This document shows, one piece after another, positions 31,131-36,541 of a DNA stretch of 50,679 nucleotides. The notes beneath the pieces were generated by a model. That model worked only from the letters and a program-made list of their open reading frames with translations, was not told where the DNA came from and ran no database searches. How positions within the stretch are numbered: position 1 is the stretch's first letter; the number at the start of each line of letters is the position of its first letter. Position numbers and translations under genes: made by a program. Source of the DNA: Patescibacteria group bacterium (GTDB taxonomy: Bacteria; Patescibacteriota; Minisyncoccia; UBA6257; MFKM01). The stretch is from the NCBI GenBank assembly GCA_038065115.1, contig JBBTRS010000004.1, positions 1 to 50,679 of the forward strand. The letters are read 5' to 3'.

Positions 31131-31784
31131 ATGAAATCCCAATCAACTCAACAATTCGTTGAAATCCAAGAAGTCCGAGAAGGAGTGATTTTTCTAAAAA
31201 ACGGCTCCTTGCGCCAATTATTGATGGTCAACGGAGTTAATTTTGATTTAAAATCGGAAACCGAGCAGGATTTAATGACTTACGCTTATCAAAACCTTTT
31301 AAACTCTTTGAATTTTTCAATCCAAATTTTCATTCATTCCCGCCGGTTAAATATTGAAACTTATCTCCAAAAAATCCAAGAACGCCACGGCCAGGAAACC
31401 AATGAACTTCTGAAAACCCAAATTGCCGAGTATCTGGAATTCATAAAGTCTTTCGTGGCCAACAACGCCATAATGGATAAAACTTTTTTCGTCATCGTGC
31501 CTTACGATCCGGTTTACTTGCCAAAAACCGCGAAAGGAATATTGGGCTTTATTAAAAAAGGGGAGGTGGCGGCTTCCAAAGATCAGCCTTCTCAATCAGA
31601 GAATATTCAACAAAATCTCCAGCAACTTAGTCAAAGAGTAGACCAGACAATTACGGGTCTTCAGCAAATCGGCCTCCGAGCGGTTCCGCTTAATACCGAG
31701 GAATCTATTGAACTTATCTACAACCTTTACAATCCCCAACTGACAGAAAAACAAAACCTGGCCATTGCTGAAGAAAATTTATAA
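31131..31784 (+). CDS. Hypothetical protein associated with VirB4 (resembles N-terminal regions of Gram-positive-type VirB4/TcpF-like proteins)
   Basis: FVEIQEVREGVIFLKNGSLRQLLMVNGVNFDLKSETEQD pattern. Start moved to an ATG; the track start is TTG. Confidence 0.5.
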   Translation: MKSQSTQQFVEIQEVREGVIFLKNGSLRQLLMVNGVNFDLKSETEQDLMTYAYQNLLNSLNFSIQIFIHSRRLNIETYLQKIQERHGQETNELLKTQIAEYLEFIKSFVANNAIMDKTFFVIVPYDPVYLPKTAKGILGFIKKGEVAASKDQPSQSENIQQNLQQLSQRVDQTITGLQQIGLRAVPLNTEESIELIYNLYNPQLTEKQNLAIAEENL

Positions 31785-31788
31785 AATT

Positions 31789-33534
31789 ATGAAAAAAATT
31801 GAAATCACCAAAGGGTATGCCGCTTCCGGCCGAGACATTCAAGATGTCATCGCGCCGGCCGGATTGGAAGTTAATGCCGGTTATCTCAAATTCGGCGAAA
31901 AATACATTAAAACGTTCTTTCTGTTTACCTATCCTCGTTATGTTTCCAGCGGCTGGTTTTCGCCAATTATCAATCTAGCGGAAATTATTGATATCGCTGT
32001 TCATATTCACCCCATTGACACGGCTTTGGCTTTGCGAAATCTCCGAAGAAAAACAGCTCAAGTCCAAGCTCAAATAATGGAGCGCGAAGAAAAAGGATTG
32101 GTCCGCGATCCGATGCTGGAAACAGCCTATCAGGATGTGGAAAATCTTCGGGACTCTCTCCAACAAGCCCAAGAAAAGCTTTTTGAGGTCGGAATCTACA
32201 TTACCATTTACGGAAACGACCTTAAAGACTTAGCCCGTCTGGAAAATTTAATCGTCTCCCTCATGGAAAGCAAATTGGTTTATGTCAAACCGGCTCTTTT
32301 TCAGCAACTTGAAGCCTTTTCTTCGGTCTTGCCTTTGGTAACGGATAAATTGGCCATTCGCACTCCGCTGAATTCCGGACCGGCTTCTTCAATATTTCCA
32401 TTTATTTCAGCCGACCTGACTTCAGACGAGGGCATTCTTTACGGCGTTAATCTTAGCAATAACAGCTTAGTGATCTTTGACCGATTCTCGCTGGAAAACG
32501 CCAATTTCTGCGTTTTCGCGAAAGCGGGCAGCGGAAAATCATTTTTCGCGAAGCTGGAAATTCTCCGATCAATAATGATGGGAACGGATATTGTCGTTAT
32601 TGACCCGGAAAACGAATATCAAAATTTATGCGAAACCATCGGCGGCAGTTATTTTAAAATCTCGTTAACTTCAACAAGCCATATCAATCCTTTTGATATA
32701 CCCATTATTCCTCCCGATGAAGAACCGGCCGAAGTTTTTAAATCACACATTCTTAACGTAGTTGGTTTAATCAAGTTAATGCTCGGCGAAATAACTCCCG
32801 CGGAAGACGCTATCTTGGACAAGACCGTTTTGGAAACTTACGCTTCACGAGACATCGTTCCGGAAAAAGATTTTTCCCAAGCCCAGCCGCCTTTACTGGA
32901 AGACTACCAAACTATTCTTGAAAACACCGAGGGAGGAGCCGACCTGGCAAAACGTTTGGAAAAATTCACCCGCGGTTCTTACGCCGGTTTTACCAACCAA
33001 CCAACCAATGTCAACATCAAAAATCGTTTGGTGGTTTTTTCCATCCGCGACTTGGAAGACGAACTGCGGCCCATCGCGATGTATATTATTCTTAATTTCA
33101 TCTGGAATCTTATCAGGGCCGAACTTAAAAAAAGAATCGTGGTTATTGACGAGGCTTGGTTAATGATGAAATACCCGGACAGCGCTTCTTTTCTTTTCGG
33201 CTTGGCCAAACGAGCGAGAAAATATTATTTGGGAGTAACAACAATCACTCAAGATGTTGAAGACTTTTTAAGTTCTCCTTACGGCCGACCGATTATCAAC
33301 AACTCCTCGCTCCAATTTCTTTTAAAACAAGCGCCGGCCACCATTGATTTAGTCGCTAAAACTTTTAGCTTAACCGATGTGGAAAAAACCTTTCTCTTGG
33401 AAGCGGCGGTGGGAGAGGGGCTATTTTTCGCGGGATTAAAACACGCTGCTCTTAAAGTGGTTGCTTCTTACGCCGAAGACCAAATGATTACCACCAACCC
33501 GGAGCAACTCCTGGAGAGGAGAAAGGAAGCTTGA
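31789..33534 (+). CDS. virB4: VirB4-family type IV secretion ATPase
   Basis: Walker A AKAGSGKS, Walker B IVVIDEAW, N-terminal YPRYVSSGWFSPI pattern. Start moved to an ATG (MKKIEIT). Confidence 0.85.
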   Translation: MKKIEITKGYAASGRDIQDVIAPAGLEVNAGYLKFGEKYIKTFFLFTYPRYVSSGWFSPIINLAEIIDIAVHIHPIDTALALRNLRRKTAQVQAQIMEREEKGLVRDPMLETAYQDVENLRDSLQQAQEKLFEVGIYITIYGNDLKDLARLENLIVSLMESKLVYVKPALFQQLEAFSSVLPLVTDKLAIRTPLNSGPASSIFPFISADLTSDEGILYGVNLSNNSLVIFDRFSLENANFCVFAKAGSGKSFFAKLEILRSIMMGTDIVVIDPENEYQNLCETIGGSYFKISLTSTSHINPFDIPIIPPDEEPAEVFKSHILNVVGLIKLMLGEITPAEDAILDKTVLETYASRDIVPEKDFSQAQPPLLEDYQTILENTEGGADLAKRLEKFTRGSYAGFTNQPTNVNIKNRLVVFSIRDLEDELRPIAMYIILNFIWNLIRAELKKRIVVIDEAWLMMKYPDSASFLFGLAKRARKYYLGVTTITQDVEDFLSSPYGRPIINNSSLQFLLKQAPATIDLVAKTFSLTDVEKTFLLEAAVGEGLFFAGLKHAALKVVASYAEDQMITTNPEQLLERRKEA

Positions 33535-33566
33535 TAGCAACCAAGCAATTGAGTATTAAATAAATT

Positions 33567-33950
33567 ATGGGAGAACAGGGGCCAAGAATTTCTTTAGTGG
33601 AGACAATCCTGATGACGATGATTACCGGCAGCGCCGATATTTTTGAATTAATCGCTACTTTATTAATCGCAGTGCCGGTAATCGGACAAATTCTTTTAGT
33701 CATAAAATGGTTTGTGGCTTTCTCTGTTTGGTTAATCATTCAATTTTGGCTTATAATGAAAGGGTTGAGGGGATTGTGGTTTTTAAGCGGCAGCGCTTTA
33801 GATACGGTGGCAAATTTTGTCGGACTTGACATTCCTTTTGGCAAAACGGCTTCGCTGATGGCTACTATTTATCTAGCCAATCACCCCAAAATAACTCAAA
33901 TAGCGGCAGTTGTTGGCGGTAAAACAGAAACCGCTACGGGGAAAAATTAA
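33567..33950 (+). CDS. Small polytopic membrane protein
   Basis: 127 aa with 3-4 hydrophobic helices. Confidence 0.5.
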   Translation: MGEQGPRISLVETILMTMITGSADIFELIATLLIAVPVIGQILLVIKWFVAFSVWLIIQFWLIMKGLRGLWFLSGSALDTVANFVGLDIPFGKTASLMATIYLANHPKITQIAAVVGGKTETATGKN

Positions 33951-33976
33951 GTAAATTTAAAGTTCAAAAAAACGGG

Positions 33977-34654
33977 ATGGAAAAAGACAATTTAAAATTT
34001 AAAAAGAAGTTTTTTATTGCTTTTGCTTTCTACCTCTTATTTTCTGCTTCTTCGTCGGCCGCCGCTCAATCGCAAGCTTTAATTACTTGGCAGGCTCAAA
34101 GTTTCGCGCCGGCTGAATACACAGGGAAAAGACTGCCTTCGCCGGGGACAAATATTAACCTGGGCTTGGAAGTGATAAGAGAAAAGAAGCTTCGAGATTT
34201 ATCAAAAATCAATATCCGCTGGTATCTTGACGGGAAATTGTTGACTCAGGGCATTGGACTAAAAGAAACGAGTTTTCTTGCGAACAAGGGAGCCACTCAT
34301 TCTCATTTTGTCCGGGCAGTTATTATGGCCGAACCAGAAATTAGCGGCAATATCGATATCCCTATTGTTAATCCCAAAATTATTATCAAAACTCCTTCGC
34401 CAGCCGATACTTTTATCGCCTTGGGCAAGACATTGCTTCAGGCCGTTCCTTATTTTTTCAACATAGCAAATCCGGAAGAGTTAATTTTTAAATGGTCGGT
34501 CAACAACCAAGCCCTTGAAGGGACTAATCTTTTGGAGCTGGAAATCGCTCCGCCGATTCCCTTAAACCAAAATCTTAATGTTAAAGTGATGGCTCAAAAT
34601 CTAAAAAACGATTTGGAGTTCGGCTCTAAAGAGATTAATTTAAATGTTCAATAA
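33977..34654 (+). CDS. Hypothetical secreted protein
   Basis: Signal peptide (…FSASSSAAAQS). Beta-rich sequence. Confidence 0.55.
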   Translation: MEKDNLKFKKKFFIAFAFYLLFSASSSAAAQSQALITWQAQSFAPAEYTGKRLPSPGTNINLGLEVIREKKLRDLSKINIRWYLDGKLLTQGIGLKETSFLANKGATHSHFVRAVIMAEPEISGNIDIPIVNPKIIIKTPSPADTFIALGKTLLQAVPYFFNIANPEELIFKWSVNNQALEGTNLLELEIAPPIPLNQNLNVKVMAQNLKNDLEFGSKEINLNVQ

Positions 34655-35372
34655 TAAAAATAAATTAATAATTATTTTTGCGTCTTTGGTTCTATTTTCT
34701 ATTTTTCCGCCTTCGGCGGACCAGCCACGGGCTGGCTATTTTTCCGCCTTCGGCGGACCAGCCACGGGCTGGCTATTTTCTATTCCAGCGGAAGCCGCTA
34801 GCCCGTTAAAATTACAAATACAGTTCCCTTGCCCCGATTTTCCCGGAGCGAACTGCCCGGCCTCTCCGGAAAAAGCCGCTCAAAGCCCGGCCGCTTATAT
34901 CGCCCGACTTTATCAATTCGCTTTAATGCTGGCCGGAATGCTGGCGTTTGGGATGATTATCTATGGGGCGATTCAATATACGGTTTCCGCCGGCAACACG
35001 ACCCAGCAAAGCGATGCCCGCGACCGCATCACTCAAGCCCTTTGGGGCGTGGCTTTACTTCTAGGCGCTTATTTGATTCTTCGCACTATTGACCCGAAAT
35101 TGGTGAACCTGAAAGATCCGGATATTAAATTAATAGAAATAAACAGCACCAGCACTCTTGGTGCCGCCGATACCGTCATTTCTCCAGCAACACCACCGTC
35201 ACCGCTAACGCCACCGCCGCCAACTCCGTCATCAATAGCGCCCTCGTTACCGCAGCGACTACCAGAACGATTGCCGCCAGACATAGAAGGCATAGAACGA
35301 ATACGATTAGAACCATTGCCGCTGCAAAATAATCAAATGCGGGCTTTGCCCCAGTTTCAGCCTGCGCTCTAA
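34644..35372 (+). CDS. VirB2/TrbC-type T4SS pilin-like protein with a Pro-rich C-terminal tail
   Basis: Signal peptide, then two TM helices flanking a polar loop (LAFGMIIYGAIQYTVSAGNTTQQSDARDRITQALWGVALLLGAYLIL), which is the typical T4SS pilin layout. Confidence 0.65.
   Translation: MFNNKNKLIIIFASLVLFSIFPPSADQPRAGYFSAFGGPATGWLFSIPAEAASPLKLQIQFPCPDFPGANCPASPEKAAQSPAAYIARLYQFALMLAGMLAFGMIIYGAIQYTVSAGNTTQQSDARDRITQALWGVALLLGAYLILRTIDPKLVNLKDPDIKLIEINSTSTLGAADTVISPATPPSPLTPPPPTPSSIAPSLPQRLPERLPPDIEGIERIRLEPLPLQNNQMRALPQFQPAL
34701..34774. repeat. Tandem 2 x 37-bp repeat (atttttccgccttcggcggaccagccacgggctggct) inside the pilin signal-peptide coding region
   Basis: Two exact copies. Each unit contains two GC-rich hairpins (CCGCC-TTC-GGCGG; CCAGCC-ACG-GGCTGG). 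Flanked by the 12-bp direct repeat ctattttctatt (34692..34703 and 34773..34784). Confidence 0.9.
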
Positions 35373-35380
35373 ATAAAGAG

Positions 35381-36541
35381 ATGATCAAATTAACCAACTT
35401 TATGCGTAAAATCTTAATTTTTATTATCGGGATTGTTGGAATTTTGGCATTGGCCTGGCTAATTTATTACATTGTCGGCCGAGCAACCGCCCCGAAAACT
35501 GCCAGCCCAGAAACAAAATCACCGGAGCAAGCAGTTGAAGAAATAAACGGGGAGCCGGTCGCGACTACAACCGGCCAATTAAAAATTATTTCCAAGGAAT
35601 CAGTTTTTGATTACTGGATTGCTTCCAGTACTCAAGAAATTTTTTATGTCACCGAAGCTGGAAAAATCGCCGAAATTAATCCCGACGGCCAAGACACCCT
35701 CCTATCGGAACAGCAAATCGGAGACCTTAATTTTATTCTGTCTTCGCCCGACAGCCGAAAAATAATCGTCGCATTCGGCAATCAAGCCCAACCGCAATTC
35801 AGTATTTTTGATTTAACCAACAACTCGTGGACCCCGTTGCCTTTAGAAATTAAATCAGCGGCGTGGTCGCCGGAAGGGAAGAGGATAGCCGTTATAACCA
35901 GCCAAAACAATCAAACCAATTTGACGATTATTGACGTTGCCAAATACTTTTCCACCGACGCGAAGCAAAAAGAAAAAGCCTCTAAAATAATTATTAAAAA
36001 TTTTGCCTTGAAAGATTTAAAAATAGACTGGCTGATGCCCGATGAATTGGTTTTCACCGACAAGCCCTCCTCTTTAGCAATGGGCTCGGCTTGGCGGTTT
36101 AATCTTTCCAAGCTTAATTTTGACGAAATCGTTCCCCCGGGAAACGGATTGATGATTAAATGGCTAAAAGATGATTTGGGACTGAAATTCCAAAACCAAA
36201 AAAGCAGTTTGATTAATTGGGCCGGGCAAGCCATCAACGACTTTCCGTTTATGGCTTTACCGGACAAATGTGTTTTAAAAATAGATTCTCTTTACTGCTT
36301 CCTCTTTACACCGGCCAGCCCAAAAACAAAATGGCCTGACGATTATCTCCAAAAATCAACCTTTACCAACGATAGTCTTTATAAATTCAATCTGGGCAAT
36401 TTAACCGCGCCGGAGTTGGTTTTTGAAAACACCATAGAAGGAAAAATCATTGACGCCTCAAACTTAAAACTCCTCGGCAATCAAATTCTTTTTACCAATC
36501 GCTACGACAGCCTGCTTTACGGTTTAGAAATTAGTAATTAA
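35381..36541 (+). CDS. Membrane-anchored protein with a beta-propeller-like (TolB-like) region
   Basis: N-terminal TM helix. Contains AAWSPEGKRIAV-type repeats. Confidence 0.55.
   Translation: MIKLTNFMRKILIFIIGIVGILALAWLIYYIVGRATAPKTASPETKSPEQAVEEINGEPVATTTGQLKIISKESVFDYWIASSTQEIFYVTEAGKIAEINPDGQDTLLSEQQIGDLNFILSSPDSRKIIVAFGNQAQPQFSIFDLTNNSWTPLPLEIKSAAWSPEGKRIAVITSQNNQTNLTIIDVAKYFSTDAKQKEKASKIIIKNFALKDLKIDWLMPDELVFTDKPSSLAMGSAWRFNLSKLNFDEIVPPGNGLMIKWLKDDLGLKFQNQKSSLINWAGQAINDFPFMALPDKCVLKIDSLYCFLFTPASPKTKWPDDYLQKSTFTNDSLYKFNLGNLTAPELVFENTIEGKIIDASNLKLLGNQILFTNRYDSLLYGLEISN

What the first reader, a model, noticed from the sequence alone, without database searches (positions are those of the whole stretch)
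34692..34784. In-frame 81-bp insertion made of two 37-bp double-hairpin units inside the pilin signal peptide
The unit atttttccgccttcggcggaccagccacgggctggct occurs twice in exact tandem (34701..34737 and 34738..34774). The pair is flanked by the 12-bp direct repeat ctattttctatt (34692..34703 and 34773..34784). Each unit holds two GC-rich hairpins in otherwise AT-rich DNA. One unit (37 bp) would shift the frame, but the distance between the flanking repeats is 81 bp, which is 27 codons. The insertion is therefore in frame and adds FPPSADQPRAGYFSAFGGPATGWLFSI. The two unit copies are read in different frames. Removing the 81 bp restores a textbook signal peptide, ...ASLVLFSIPAEA/AS. This resembles an intragenic REP- or MITE-like insertion with target-site duplication, or a slippage-prone module. 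Changes in unit copy number would switch the pilin ORF on and off in a phase-variation-like manner.
Basis: seen in the sequence. Interest (0 to 1): 0.6.

Follow-up and report, generated by a model that had tools for sequence, protein, structure and literature searches.

The report
Two mini-hairpin inserts in pilin leader
The "37-bp tandem repeat" is two copies of a 30-base GC-rich double-hairpin mini-element that landed, in frame, between 7-base repeats encoding the export signal of a secretion-system pilin in an ultra-small groundwater bacterium. The same apparently undescribed element sits inside many housekeeping genes of this genome and its relatives.

Summary
The sequence facts are correct, but the anatomy should be re-read.

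- **Heptamer tract.** Orthologous pilins without any insert already carry the tract (CTAYTTT)x4-5, which encodes the signal-peptide core LLSTFYFLFS.
- **Structure of the insert.** The window reads h-h-[DH30]-h-[DH30]-h-CTATT. DH30 is an exact 30-nt unit of two abutting hairpins, each with a 6-bp stem and a 3-nt loop. Each DH30 adds 10 codons, so the net insertion is 60 bp, not 81 bp.
- **A dispersed family.** DH30 has about 18 copies in this 590-kb Ca. Jorgensenbacteria genome, in RuvB, GyrB, ValRS, EF-P, TrmD, GrpE and others. It is present or absent among same-genus genomes, always as a precise 30-nt insertion after a T-run with no target duplication. Sixteen of 40 same-order genomes carry it.
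- **A second pilin insertion.** A sister lineage has a different DH30 one base away in the same pilin leader. That 30-mer is identical to a copy in the L15 tail, with the same 21-nt flanks.
- **Recurring geometry.** The 30+7+30 arrangement recurs inside heptamer runs in two other genomes.
- **Phase variation.** It is unsupported.

This scan has reported the DH30 family before, in at least 34 other genomes. I found no publication describing it.

The parts
34644..35372 (+). VirB2-like T4SS pilin gene (242 aa) that hosts the inserts
   Evidence: ORF. PF18895 at 23.8 bits. 42 homologues, many carrying PF18895. The model has a leader helix at 5-20, a disordered stretch at 21-74 and helices at 82-114 and 119-149.
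34692..34705 (+). Heptamers h1 and h2 (CTATTTT CTATTTT) of the pre-existing array that encodes the signal-peptide hydrophobic core
   Evidence: The same array is present in insert-free orthologues L008, G002 and G003.
34706..34735 (+). DH30 copy 1: TCCGCCTTCGGCGGA + CCAGCCACGGGCTGG, read with a frame offset of 2 as (F)PPSADQPRAG
34736..34742 (+). Heptamer h3 (CTATTTT) between the two inserts
34743..34772 (+). DH30 copy 2, 30/30 identical to copy 1, read in frame 0 as SAFGGPATGW
34773..34784 (+). Heptamer h4 plus the partial heptamer h5 (CTATTTT CTATT), the end of the array
34788..34799 (+). Conserved A-E-A|A signal-peptidase-type motif. The cleavage point is inferred between 34796 and 34797.
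   Evidence: A51 is 90% or more conserved and A52 is invariant in the 24-sequence alignment. Cleavage itself is inferred, not shown.
31765..33534 (+). VirB4/TraG-type T4SS ATPase upstream (genomic context)
   Evidence: PF19044 at 2.1e-30.
50343..50372 (+). A second DH30-family copy in the window (TCCGCCCGAGGCGGA + TCCGCTTTTAGCGGA), in frame in the C-terminal tail of RuvB (SARGGSAFSG)

Best explanation
The feature is two identical copies of a 30-nt GC-rich 'double-hairpin' mini insertion element (DH30). DH30 consists of two abutting 15-nt hairpins, each with a 6-bp stem and a 3-nt loop. The two copies sit at consecutive junctions of a pre-existing (CTATTTT)n heptamer array. That array encodes the hydrophobic core of the leader peptide of a VirB2-like type IV secretion pilin in a Candidatus Jorgensenbacteria (Patescibacteria/CPR) genome.

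Shown:
- DH30 is a dispersed, insertion-polymorphic family.
- It inserts precisely, as exactly 30 nt (10 codons), immediately 3' of a T-run, without target-site duplication.
- It lies mostly inside genes, where it is read through, most often as Ser-Ala-x-Gly-Gly twice.

Inferred:
- It is selfish or neutral DNA copied by a sequence-directed mechanism acting in trans or by templated repair. No transposase was identified.
- The pilin leader tolerates it because the first 14 hydrophobic residues still form a membrane-spanning helix and the inserts lie upstream of the conserved AxA cleavage motif, so they would be removed from the mature pilin.
- The second copy is a local duplicate of the first. 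Most likely it was copied one heptamer further along the array in a single frame-neutral step. A 37-nt slippage followed by loss of one heptamer is less likely.

The T-rich heptamer array acts as a landing pad. A sister lineage acquired a different DH30 one base away in the same leader.
For: 1. Orthologues: 21 of 24 aligned pilins lack the segment. Insert-free orthologues carry the same number of heptamers, about 4.7.
2. Family: the strict pattern hits 13 times in G000 and 5 relaxed copies bring the total to about 18, against 0-4 in Markov-shuffled genomes. Seventeen of the 18 lie in open frames of at least 179 aa. Twelve of the 18 are in frame 0.
3. Mobility: in ValRS, GyrB, TrmD, EF-P, GrpE and four other genes, same-genus genomes G001-G004 show filled versus empty sites that differ by exactly 30 nt (60 nt in GyrB). 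There is no flank duplication. Empty sites read TTT^(A/G)A, for example ATTTTT^AAAATT and AAATTT^AAGGAC.
4. Distribution: 16 of 40 other same-order genomes carry 1-9 copies. The reversed-pattern control gives 0 everywhere.
5. Hot spot: metagenomic allele L003/L004 has one DH30 of another subfamily (CCTCCC/TCTCCC) at C^TATTTT in the same leader. It is only 50% identical to the window's DH30, while the flanks are about 87% identical.
6. Sequence-directed copying: that L003 30-mer is 30/30 identical to the DH30 in the L15 tail of G003. G003 is the same species, 96.9% identical over 2 kb. The two copies share identical flanks of 15 + 6 nt (CTATTTTCTATTTTC^..^TATTTT). G004 shows the empty L15 site.
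7. Pair geometry: among 401 class genomes, only 3 others have DH30 pairs within 30 nt. Two of them are 30+7+30 with (near-)identical copies inside runs of one T-rich heptamer, in frame in TsaD-like and UvrC genes.
8. Tolerance: the model gives a helix at 5-20 and a low-confidence coil over the inserts.
Against: - No enzyme or mechanism was identified. No Y1/RAYT transposase is present in this 95.7%-complete genome.
- The window's own 30-mer has no other exact copy in the own genome, in GTDB species representatives or in JGI metagenomes, so no donor is known.
- Orthologous DH30 copies keep their stems through compensatory changes: GrpE TCTCCC/GGGAGA versus TCCCCC/GGGGGA, and C20 T..A versus C..G. 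This could mean the hairpins are selected for a function rather than being purely selfish.
- Whether the inserts are translated, and whether the leader is still cleaved at AEA|A (now 31 residues after the hydrophobic helix instead of about 6), is not shown.
- Identical copies 37 nt apart are also what replication slippage would produce.
Confidence: 0.8

Rival explanations
1. First reader's model. An 81-bp composite element made of two 37-bp units inserted once into the leader, with a 12-bp target-site duplication. It now acts as a slippage-prone ON/OFF (phase-variation) switch for the pilin.
For: A 37-nt exact tandem repeat and a 12-nt direct repeat 81 nt apart are present. Gain or loss of one 37-nt unit truncates the protein at codon 64 or 42. 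Heptamer tracts are also frameshift-prone.
Against: - The 12-mer is part of a heptamer array that is present without any insert in L008, G002 and G003.
- Family members elsewhere are exactly 30 nt and have no duplication.
- The net difference from orthologues is 60 nt.
- There are only 2.2 copies of the 37-mer.
- Four assemblies that differ by SNPs share one allele.
- The protein cluster has a single member, and the hypothetical 0- and 1-copy alleles are absent from 15 billion proteins.
Confidence: 0.07
2. The second copy arose by replication slippage of a 37-nt unit (DH30 plus one heptamer) between flanking heptamers, followed by loss of one heptamer to restore the frame. This concerns only the origin of the pair and is otherwise compatible with the best explanation.
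For: The two copies are 30/30 identical, including their loops, whereas dispersed copies almost always differ in their loops. Direct 7-nt repeats flank the unit. Hairpins stall replication (general knowledge). G113 has a 49-nt-period array of three copies.
Against: - It needs two frameshifting events with a null intermediate.
- The same 30+7+30 in-frame geometry occurs in a TsaD-like gene and in UvrC. Three independent compensated double events are unparsimonious.
- The total heptamer count (4.7) equals that of the insert-free orthologue (L008) and is close to that of the one-insert relative (L003, about 4.9).
Confidence: 0.25
3. The hairpins are a selected cis-regulatory structure of the pilin mRNA or DNA. 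Candidates are an intragenic attenuator or terminator, a translational pause aiding membrane targeting, or a protein-binding site.
For: On the + strand, hairpin 2 is followed by CTATTTT(T) and scores as terminator-like twice. The region folds better than its shuffles, z = -3.5. Stems are conserved through compensatory changes at other loci.
Against: - The same 30-mer family sits at arbitrary positions in about 17 other genes, usually followed by A-runs rather than U-runs.
- Same-species alleles and most orthologues of the pilin lack it.
- The stems are only 6 bp, about -9 kcal/mol.
- The terminator-like appearance comes from the T-rich heptamers that were already there.
Confidence: 0.06
4. Assembly artefact, or a genuine conserved protein segment.
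For: None beyond the a priori possibility.
Against: Three further assemblies carry it. The 81-nt array is shorter than a read. Twenty-one of 24 orthologues lack the residues.
Confidence: 0.01

Closest known systems
Rickettsia palindromic elements (RPE; Ogata et al. 2000, as summarised in PMC10969869)
   Same: Both are palindromic repeats that insert into unrelated protein-coding genes in frame, are read through as extra peptide, and are tolerated in housekeeping enzymes of a reduced genome.
   Different: RPEs are about 150 bp, restricted to Rickettsia, and each family encodes a conserved peptide. DH30 is 30 nt and consists of two minimal hairpins with free loops. It shows no detectable sequence relation to RPEs and is spread across Patescibacteria lineages.
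Mitochondrial GC clusters and double-hairpin elements (DHE) of fungi, and repetitive hairpin-forming elements of sponges (PMC4478555, PMC2800124; Paquin et al. 2000 from my own knowledge)
   Same: Both are short GC-rich double hairpins in AT-rich genomes. Both are dispersed, insertion-polymorphic and occasionally found inside rRNA or protein genes. No transposase is known for either.
   Different: Those elements are organellar rather than bacterial, mostly intergenic and variable in length. Yeast GC clusters have characteristic AT flanks. DH30 has a fixed 30-nt length and sits mainly inside genes.
REP/BIME/REPIN elements with RAYT (Y1 HUH) transposases, and IS200/IS605-type insertion without target duplication
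   Same: All are short imperfect palindromes of similar size. Insertion is 3' of a short specific sequence with no target duplication.
   Different: REPs are extragenic and co-occur with a RAYT gene. Here almost all copies are intragenic, and PF01797 is not found in the genome.
Heptanucleotide tandem arrays (cyanobacterial STRR, Xanthomonas GGGAATC SSRs; from earlier scan notes and my own knowledge)
   Same: The host tract (CTAYTTT)n is one of 105 period-7 arrays in this genome. Such arrays also encode the h-regions of other secreted proteins here.
   Different: The arrays are the landing pad, not the element. The association of DH30 with the arrays has not, to my knowledge, been described.
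Simple-sequence-repeat contingency loci (phase variation), for example heptanucleotide repeats in Haemophilus hmw1A (PMC8262952)
   Same: Repeat units that are not a multiple of three (37 nt and 7 nt) lie inside the 5' end of a surface-structure gene.
   Different: Copy number is very low (2). No length polymorphism was seen in four assemblies. The repeat is a by-product of an inserted element.

Membership tests
DH30 double-hairpin mini-element (family defined in this scan; apparently unpublished) | Exactly 30 nt, made of two abutting 15-nt hairpins (6-bp GC-rich stem, 3-nt loop) with stems of type YCNSCC/GGSNGR | tested here: met
   34706-34735 and 34743-34772 match YCHSCCNNNGGSDGR x2.
DH30 double-hairpin mini-element (family defined in this scan; apparently unpublished) | Precise insertion relative to orthologues, without target-site duplication, 3' of a T-run | tested here: met
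   The pilin site is TATTTT^CTATTTT when compared with L008, G002 and G003. Nine other loci behave the same way.
DH30 double-hairpin mini-element (family defined in this scan; apparently unpublished) | Dispersed copies in the same and in related genomes | tested here: met
   About 18 copies in G000. Sixteen of 40 same-order genomes carry it, and controls give 0.
Rickettsia palindromic elements | About 100-150 bp, with family-specific conserved sequence or peptide | tested here: not met
   The element is 30 nt, and its loops are free to vary.
Rickettsia palindromic elements | In-frame insertion into unrelated ORFs | tested here: met
MITE | Terminal inverted repeats plus a target-site duplication, derived from an IS element | tested here: not met
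   No duplication at 10 compared sites. No parent IS was found.
REP/REPIN-RAYT | Extragenic location and a cognate Y1 (RAYT) transposase gene | tested here: not met
   Seventeen of 18 copies lie in long ORFs. PF01797 gives no hit in G000, although the positive controls do hit.
Phase-variable contingency locus | Repeat-number polymorphism within populations that switches the frame | not testable with these tools
Indirectly, one allele is seen in 4 assemblies and no alternative alleles appear in the protein collection.
Phase-variable contingency locus | Unit length not divisible by three, inside the ORF | tested here: met
   Periods of 37 nt and 7 nt. A change of +/-37 gives early stops.
T4SS_pilin (PF18895) / VirB2-like pilin | HMM match above the gathering score | tested here: inconclusive
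   23.8 bits against a cut-off of 26.6. Close orthologues carry precomputed PF18895 hits.
T4SS_pilin (PF18895) / VirB2-like pilin | Small protein with a leader and two hydrophobic helices, encoded next to virB4 | tested here: met
   Helices at 82-114 and 119-149. A VirB4/TraG-type ATPase lies 1.1 kb upstream.

The most novel reading that the evidence does not exclude
DH30 is not moved by a classical transposase. Instead it is copied by short-patch, flank-guided templated repair that uses T-rich heptamer arrays as homology. Out-of-register pairing within an array steps a copy 7 nt along, which gives the recurrent in-frame 30+7+30 pairs. Pairing between arrays at different loci moves it from gene to gene, for example from the L15 tail to the pilin leader, which share an identical 30-mer and identical 21-nt flanks. 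DH30 would then be a parasite of heptamer arrays. As a by-product it remodels the export signals of secreted proteins and creates frameshift-prone 37-nt repeats.
Probability: 0.25. Interest if true: 0.8.

Novelty: new variant of a known kind. Interest (0 to 1): 0.62.

Why it matters
Selfish palindromic DNA that lives inside coding genes is known mainly from Rickettsia (elements of about 150 bp) and from mitochondria. Here a 30-nt element, close to the smallest conceivable structured insert, does the same in essential genes of ultra-small CPR bacteria, and I could not find it described.

This locus adds mechanistic clues that single insertions cannot give:
- Two identical copies lie exactly one heptamer apart.
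- A second, independent insertion lies one base away in a sister lineage.
- One 30-mer is shared, with identical flanks, between two unrelated genes of one species.
- The 30+7+30 geometry recurs in other genomes.

Together these point to sequence-directed copying into T-rich heptamer arrays, and they give concrete substrates for finding the enzyme or repair pathway. The locus also shows that a Sec-type leader of a T4SS pilin can absorb 20 extra residues, including Pro, Asp and Arg. This matters for annotation too, because such inserts can look like frameshift modules or novel motifs.

Tried and rejected
- **Read pile-ups.** No read-level test was possible.
- **Exact search for the 29-nt core** with up to 3 mismatches in the window and the genome. 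It found only the two pilin copies. That first suggested a unique sequence. A structure-based scan then revealed the family. My first script had an off-by-one error and missed it.
- **Exact 30-mer of the window** in metagenome contigs and genome contigs: no hits, so no donor and no alternative alleles.
- **Exact look-up of hypothetical 0-copy and 1-copy pilin alleles:** not in the collection.
- **Empty-site tests for the 30+7+30 pairs** of G289 (TsaD-like) and G305 (UvrC). The relatives are too divergent at those loops and carry other palindromic inserts there. I could not decide whether the heptamer runs pre-date the inserts.
- **Y1/RAYT transposase (PF01797):** not found.
- **Same descent for the window's and L003's inserts.** I rejected this because they are 11/31 or 15/30 identical depending on register, while the flanks are about 87% identical.
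- **Terminator or attenuator reading:** considered and down-weighted.
- **Literature.** Three of my five searches looked for a description of such an element in CPR/Patescibacteria or under the name double-hairpin elements, and none found one.
Full report
**1. Observation.**
The window holds an exact 37-nt tandem repeat (2.2 copies, 34699-34779). It lies inside ORF 34644-35372 (+). The 12-nt direct repeat CTATTTTCTATT flanks it at a distance of 81 nt. Each unit contains two perfect hairpins with 6-bp stems and 3-nt loops, TCCGCC-TTC-GGCGGA and CCAGCC-ACG-GGCTGG. Each folds at about -8.9 kcal/mol as RNA. Chance expectation for the core is 0.

The ORF is a VirB2-like T4SS pilin:
- It hits PF18895 at 23.8 bits, just under the cut-off, and its orthologues carry PF18895.
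- It lies downstream of a VirB4/TraG-type ATPase.
- An AlphaFold model built on 24 homologues has a leader helix at 5-20, a low-confidence coil at 21-74 and two long helices at 82-114 and 119-149.

The genome (G000) is 590 kb in 37 contigs with 40% G+C. Its genus includes Candidatus Jorgensenbacteria RIFCSPLOWO2_12_FULL_42_11. The contig names of the other assemblies carrying the same protein point to Hainich groundwater well H52. Three further assemblies carry the same two-copy allele. They differ from the window by 7, 4 and 0 SNPs over 3.9-6.7 kb. It is therefore not an assembly artefact.

**2. Re-reading the anatomy.**
In a 24-sequence alignment, 21 orthologues lack the segment and two (P0002, P0003) have a 10-residue insert at the same place. 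At the DNA level the insert-free orthologue L008 reads CTACTTT CTACTTT CTATTTT CTATTTT CTATT. This heptanucleotide array encodes LLSTFYFLFSI, the hydrophobic core of the signal peptide. G002 and G003 (same genus) have equivalent arrays and no insert.

The window reads CTATTTT CTATTTT [30] CTATTTT [30] CTATTTT CTATT. It has the same number of heptamers (4.7) plus two identical 30-nt blocks. Three consequences follow:
- The inserted unit is 30 nt (10 codons, frame-neutral) and the net insertion is 60 nt.
- The '12-bp target duplication' is simply the array.

Deleting 81 nt yields a plausible but non-ancestral leader.

**3. The 30-mer is a member of a dispersed family (DH30).**
A scan for abutting GC-rich hairpins found exactly-30-nt double hairpins on many contigs of G000. 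Five Markov-shuffled genomes gave 0-4 such pairs.
- The stems are TCCGCC/GGCGGA, CCAGCC/GGCTGG, TCTCCC/GGGAGA, TCCCCC and TGTCCC. The loops vary freely.
- The strict pattern YCHSCCNNNGGSDGR x2 hits 13 times in G000. It also hits in 16 of 40 other genomes of the same order (1-9 copies each). The reversed-pattern control gives 0 everywhere.
- Including relaxed copies there are about 18 in G000, and 17 lie in open frames of at least 179 aa.
- Twelve are read in frame 0 (S-A-x-G-G-S-A-x-G-G or similar), three at offset 1 and three at offset 2.
- By recognisable sequence motifs (my own reading, not run against Pfam), the hosts include ValRS, GyrB, TrmD, EF-P, GrpE, YbeY and a Mur-ligase-like protein. 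Inside the window, the C-terminal tail of RuvB carries a copy at 50343-50372.

**4. Mobility and target.**
I used a concatenated query of host-gene segments against same-genus genomes G001-G004. I then made protein and DNA alignments.
- Every locus tested shows filled and empty states differing by exactly 10 codons (30 nt). GyrB differs by 60 nt (four hairpins, which I read as a nested pair).
- ValRS is filled in G000 and G003. GrpE is filled in G000, G003 and G004. The C20 gene is filled in G000 and G002. TrmD, EF-P, the C13, C33 and C18 genes and GyrB are filled only in G000.
- There is no target duplication.
- Empty sites read ...TTT^(A/G)A... (ATTTTT^AAAATT, GATTTT^AAAAAT, AAATTT^AAGGAC, GATTTT^GACTTT, TCTTTG^GAAAAA). 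The T-run and A-run flanks therefore belong to the target, not the element. The pilin sites (TATTTT^CTATTTT) fit the 5' half of this preference.
- Orthologous filled copies differ mainly in their loops. Their stems are kept, partly through compensatory pairs (GrpE TCTCCC/GGGAGA versus TCCCCC/GGGGGA; C20 T..A versus C..G). I also saw one G-T pair and one mismatch.
- No Y1/RAYT transposase is found in G000.

**5. The pilin leader is a hot spot.**
Metagenomic contigs L003 and L004 carry one DH30 of another subfamily (CCTCCC-TTC-GGGAGG + TCTCCC-GTA-GGGAGA). It is inserted one base to the right, at C^TATTTT, in the same array.
- Depending on register it is 11/31 or 15/30 identical to the window's DH30, while the flanks are about 87% identical. 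The two are therefore independent insertions, not one diverged insertion.
- L003 is 96.9% identical over 2 kb to G003, whose pilin has no insert.
- The first ~70 nt of the L003 pilin ORF are a window-like allele (type A, NKNKLIIIFAS..LFSIF). G003 and L008 have type B. The leader is thus mosaic within a species, and the 3' end of the divergent stretch lies at the array.

**6. Sequence-directed copying.**
The L003 30-mer is 30/30 identical to a DH30 in G003 that lies in the C-terminal tail of ribosomal protein L15, just before secY. The flanks are also identical: 15 nt on the 5' side and 6 nt on the 3' side (CTATTTTCTATTTTC^..^TATTTT). G004 shows the empty L15 tail, GAGAAAATAGAAAATAAAAAG. So the same element variant sits at the same position of the same heptamer context in two unrelated genes of one species.

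The same 30-mer occurs in seven contexts in public metagenomes and genomes, including a Saccharibacteria MAG. At least four of those contexts are next to heptamer arrays. In G005, three of four copies of one 30-mer lie in similar heptamer-like flanks (AAAAACT/ATAAGCT).

**7. The 30+7+30 geometry recurs.**
Among 401 genomes of the class, only three others have two DH30 copies within 30 nt.
- G289 has DH-CAAATTC-DH with identical copies, in a TsaD-like gene.
- G305 has DH-CAATTTT-DH' with one loop difference, in UvrC.
- Both are in frame and lie inside runs of that same heptamer: X[DH]X[DH]X.
- G113 has a 49-nt-period array.

A 37-nt slippage always breaks the frame and needs a compensating heptamer change. 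Three independent in-frame pairs argue instead for a single frame-neutral step that copies the 30-mer to the equivalent junction one heptamer away. One of the pairs lies in a gene that is essential in most bacteria (general knowledge), which strengthens the argument. I cannot exclude slippage plus compensation. I could not establish the pre-insertion state for G289 or G305, because their relatives are too divergent.

**8. Heptamer arrays as context.**
G000 has 105 period-7 arrays, 0.5% of the genome. (CTAYTTT)n arrays also encode the h-regions (..LLSTFYFLFS..) of at least two or three other secreted proteins, at C34:33453, C10:15433 and the related C26:37774. The pilin tract is thus one member of a genome-wide repeat class.

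**9. Consequence for the pilin (inferred).**
- Residues 8-21 (LIIIFASLVLFSIF) still form a 14-residue hydrophobic helix.
- The inserts add PPSADQPRAG and SAFGGPATGW, separated by YF. They lie upstream of the conserved A-x-A|A motif.
- That motif is now 31 residues after the helix, compared with about 6 in orthologues.
- If the leader is cleaved there, the inserts do not reach the mature pilin.
- Export efficiency may be affected. The mature region is intact and conserved.

**10. Phase variation.**
A change of +/-37 nt gives stops at codon 42 or 64. I found no evidence of variation: one allele in four assemblies, a one-member protein cluster, and no 0- or 1-copy alleles. Reads could not be inspected.

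**11. Comparison and novelty.**
The closest analogues are listed below.
- Rickettsia palindromic elements: about 150 bp, in-frame in ORFs (PMC10969869).
- Mitochondrial GC clusters and double-hairpin elements.
- REP/RAYT elements.

DH30 fails the defining size or sequence criteria of RPEs. It fails the TIR/TSD criteria of MITEs, and the extragenic/RAYT criteria of REPs. My literature searches found no description of it. Earlier agents of this scan reported the same 30-nt element in at least 34 other genomes and likewise found no publication. They also reported heptamer arrays doubling as signal peptides in other phyla. I reached the family reading independently and tested its key claims here.

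Noticed in passing
window 50343-50372: A second DH30-family copy (TCCGCCCGAGGCGGA + TCCGCTTTTAGCGGA) lies in frame in the C-terminal tail of RuvB (ORF 49365-50393). It adds SARGGSAFSG after the RuvB_C domain.
   Followed up: partly
G000:C2:30274-30333 (outside the window): GyrB carries a 60-nt, 20-codon insert that is absent from all four same-genus genomes. It looks like one DH30 nested inside the first hairpin of another (TATCCCTATGG|TCTCCC..GGGATA|GAGA TGTCCCGAAGGGACA).
   Followed up: partly
G000, 105 arrays, e.g. C34:33453-33525, C10:15433-15505, C26:37774-37809, C10:13969-14032: The genome is full of heptanucleotide tandem arrays (0.5% of bases). Some form inverted pairs (TAGAAAA/CTATTTT). 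(CTAYTTT)n arrays are translated as the h-region LLSTFYFLFS of several secreted proteins, including the pilin.
   Followed up: partly
G000: C6:7588, C7:14608, C29:4984, C34:1342, C34:26186, C37:14599, C37:17096, C12:2728, C22:13: A different repeat family is built around the hairpin TTCGCC-N3-GGCGAA with conserved flanks (gaaaactcgatttga ... tcagggttttctaaa). It lies in short open frames and is apparently intergenic.
   Followed up: no
G000: C33:2504-2540, C7:27075-27092, C37 next to 24635 (YbeY): A further GC-rich palindrome family (GCAGGC/CCTGCC...GGCAGG) is present. In YbeY it lies directly beside a DH30, giving ..CLSDRQACLPAGRQ...
   Followed up: no
L003:2899-2970 vs L050 (G003) vs window 34644-34705: The first ~70 nt of the pilin ORF exist as two allele types (A: NKNKLIIIFAS..LFSIF; B: NxRKKIIFAF..FLLSxF). 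They are shuffled between lineages that are otherwise 97% identical. The 3' end of the divergent stretch lies at the heptamer array.
   Followed up: partly
L102-L114: The exact 30-mer CCTCCCTTCGGGAGGTCTCCCGTAGGGAGA occurs in seven different sequence contexts in unrelated metagenomes and in a Saccharibacteria MAG. This implies horizontal spread or a shared source.
   Followed up: partly
L061-L067 (UvrC of relatives of G305); L074-L076 (TsaD-like genes of relatives of G289): The same protein loops that hold DH30 pairs carry other, longer GC-rich palindromic inserts in related genomes, for example CCCCTCTCC-TTACCAAGGAGAGGGG in the UvrC loop (L062, L063) and CTCTCCCGCGGGGAGAG in the TsaD-like gene (L075). 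These loops are recurrent dumping grounds for hairpin elements.
   Followed up: no
window 31765-36541 and L005: The T4SS cluster (VirB4-like ATPase, small membrane protein, 225-aa protein, pilin, 386-aa protein) lies next to jag/yidC and dnaA. This matches the origin-proximal placement noted for Patescibacteria T4SS in preprint 10.1101/2025.01.22.634366.
   Followed up: no
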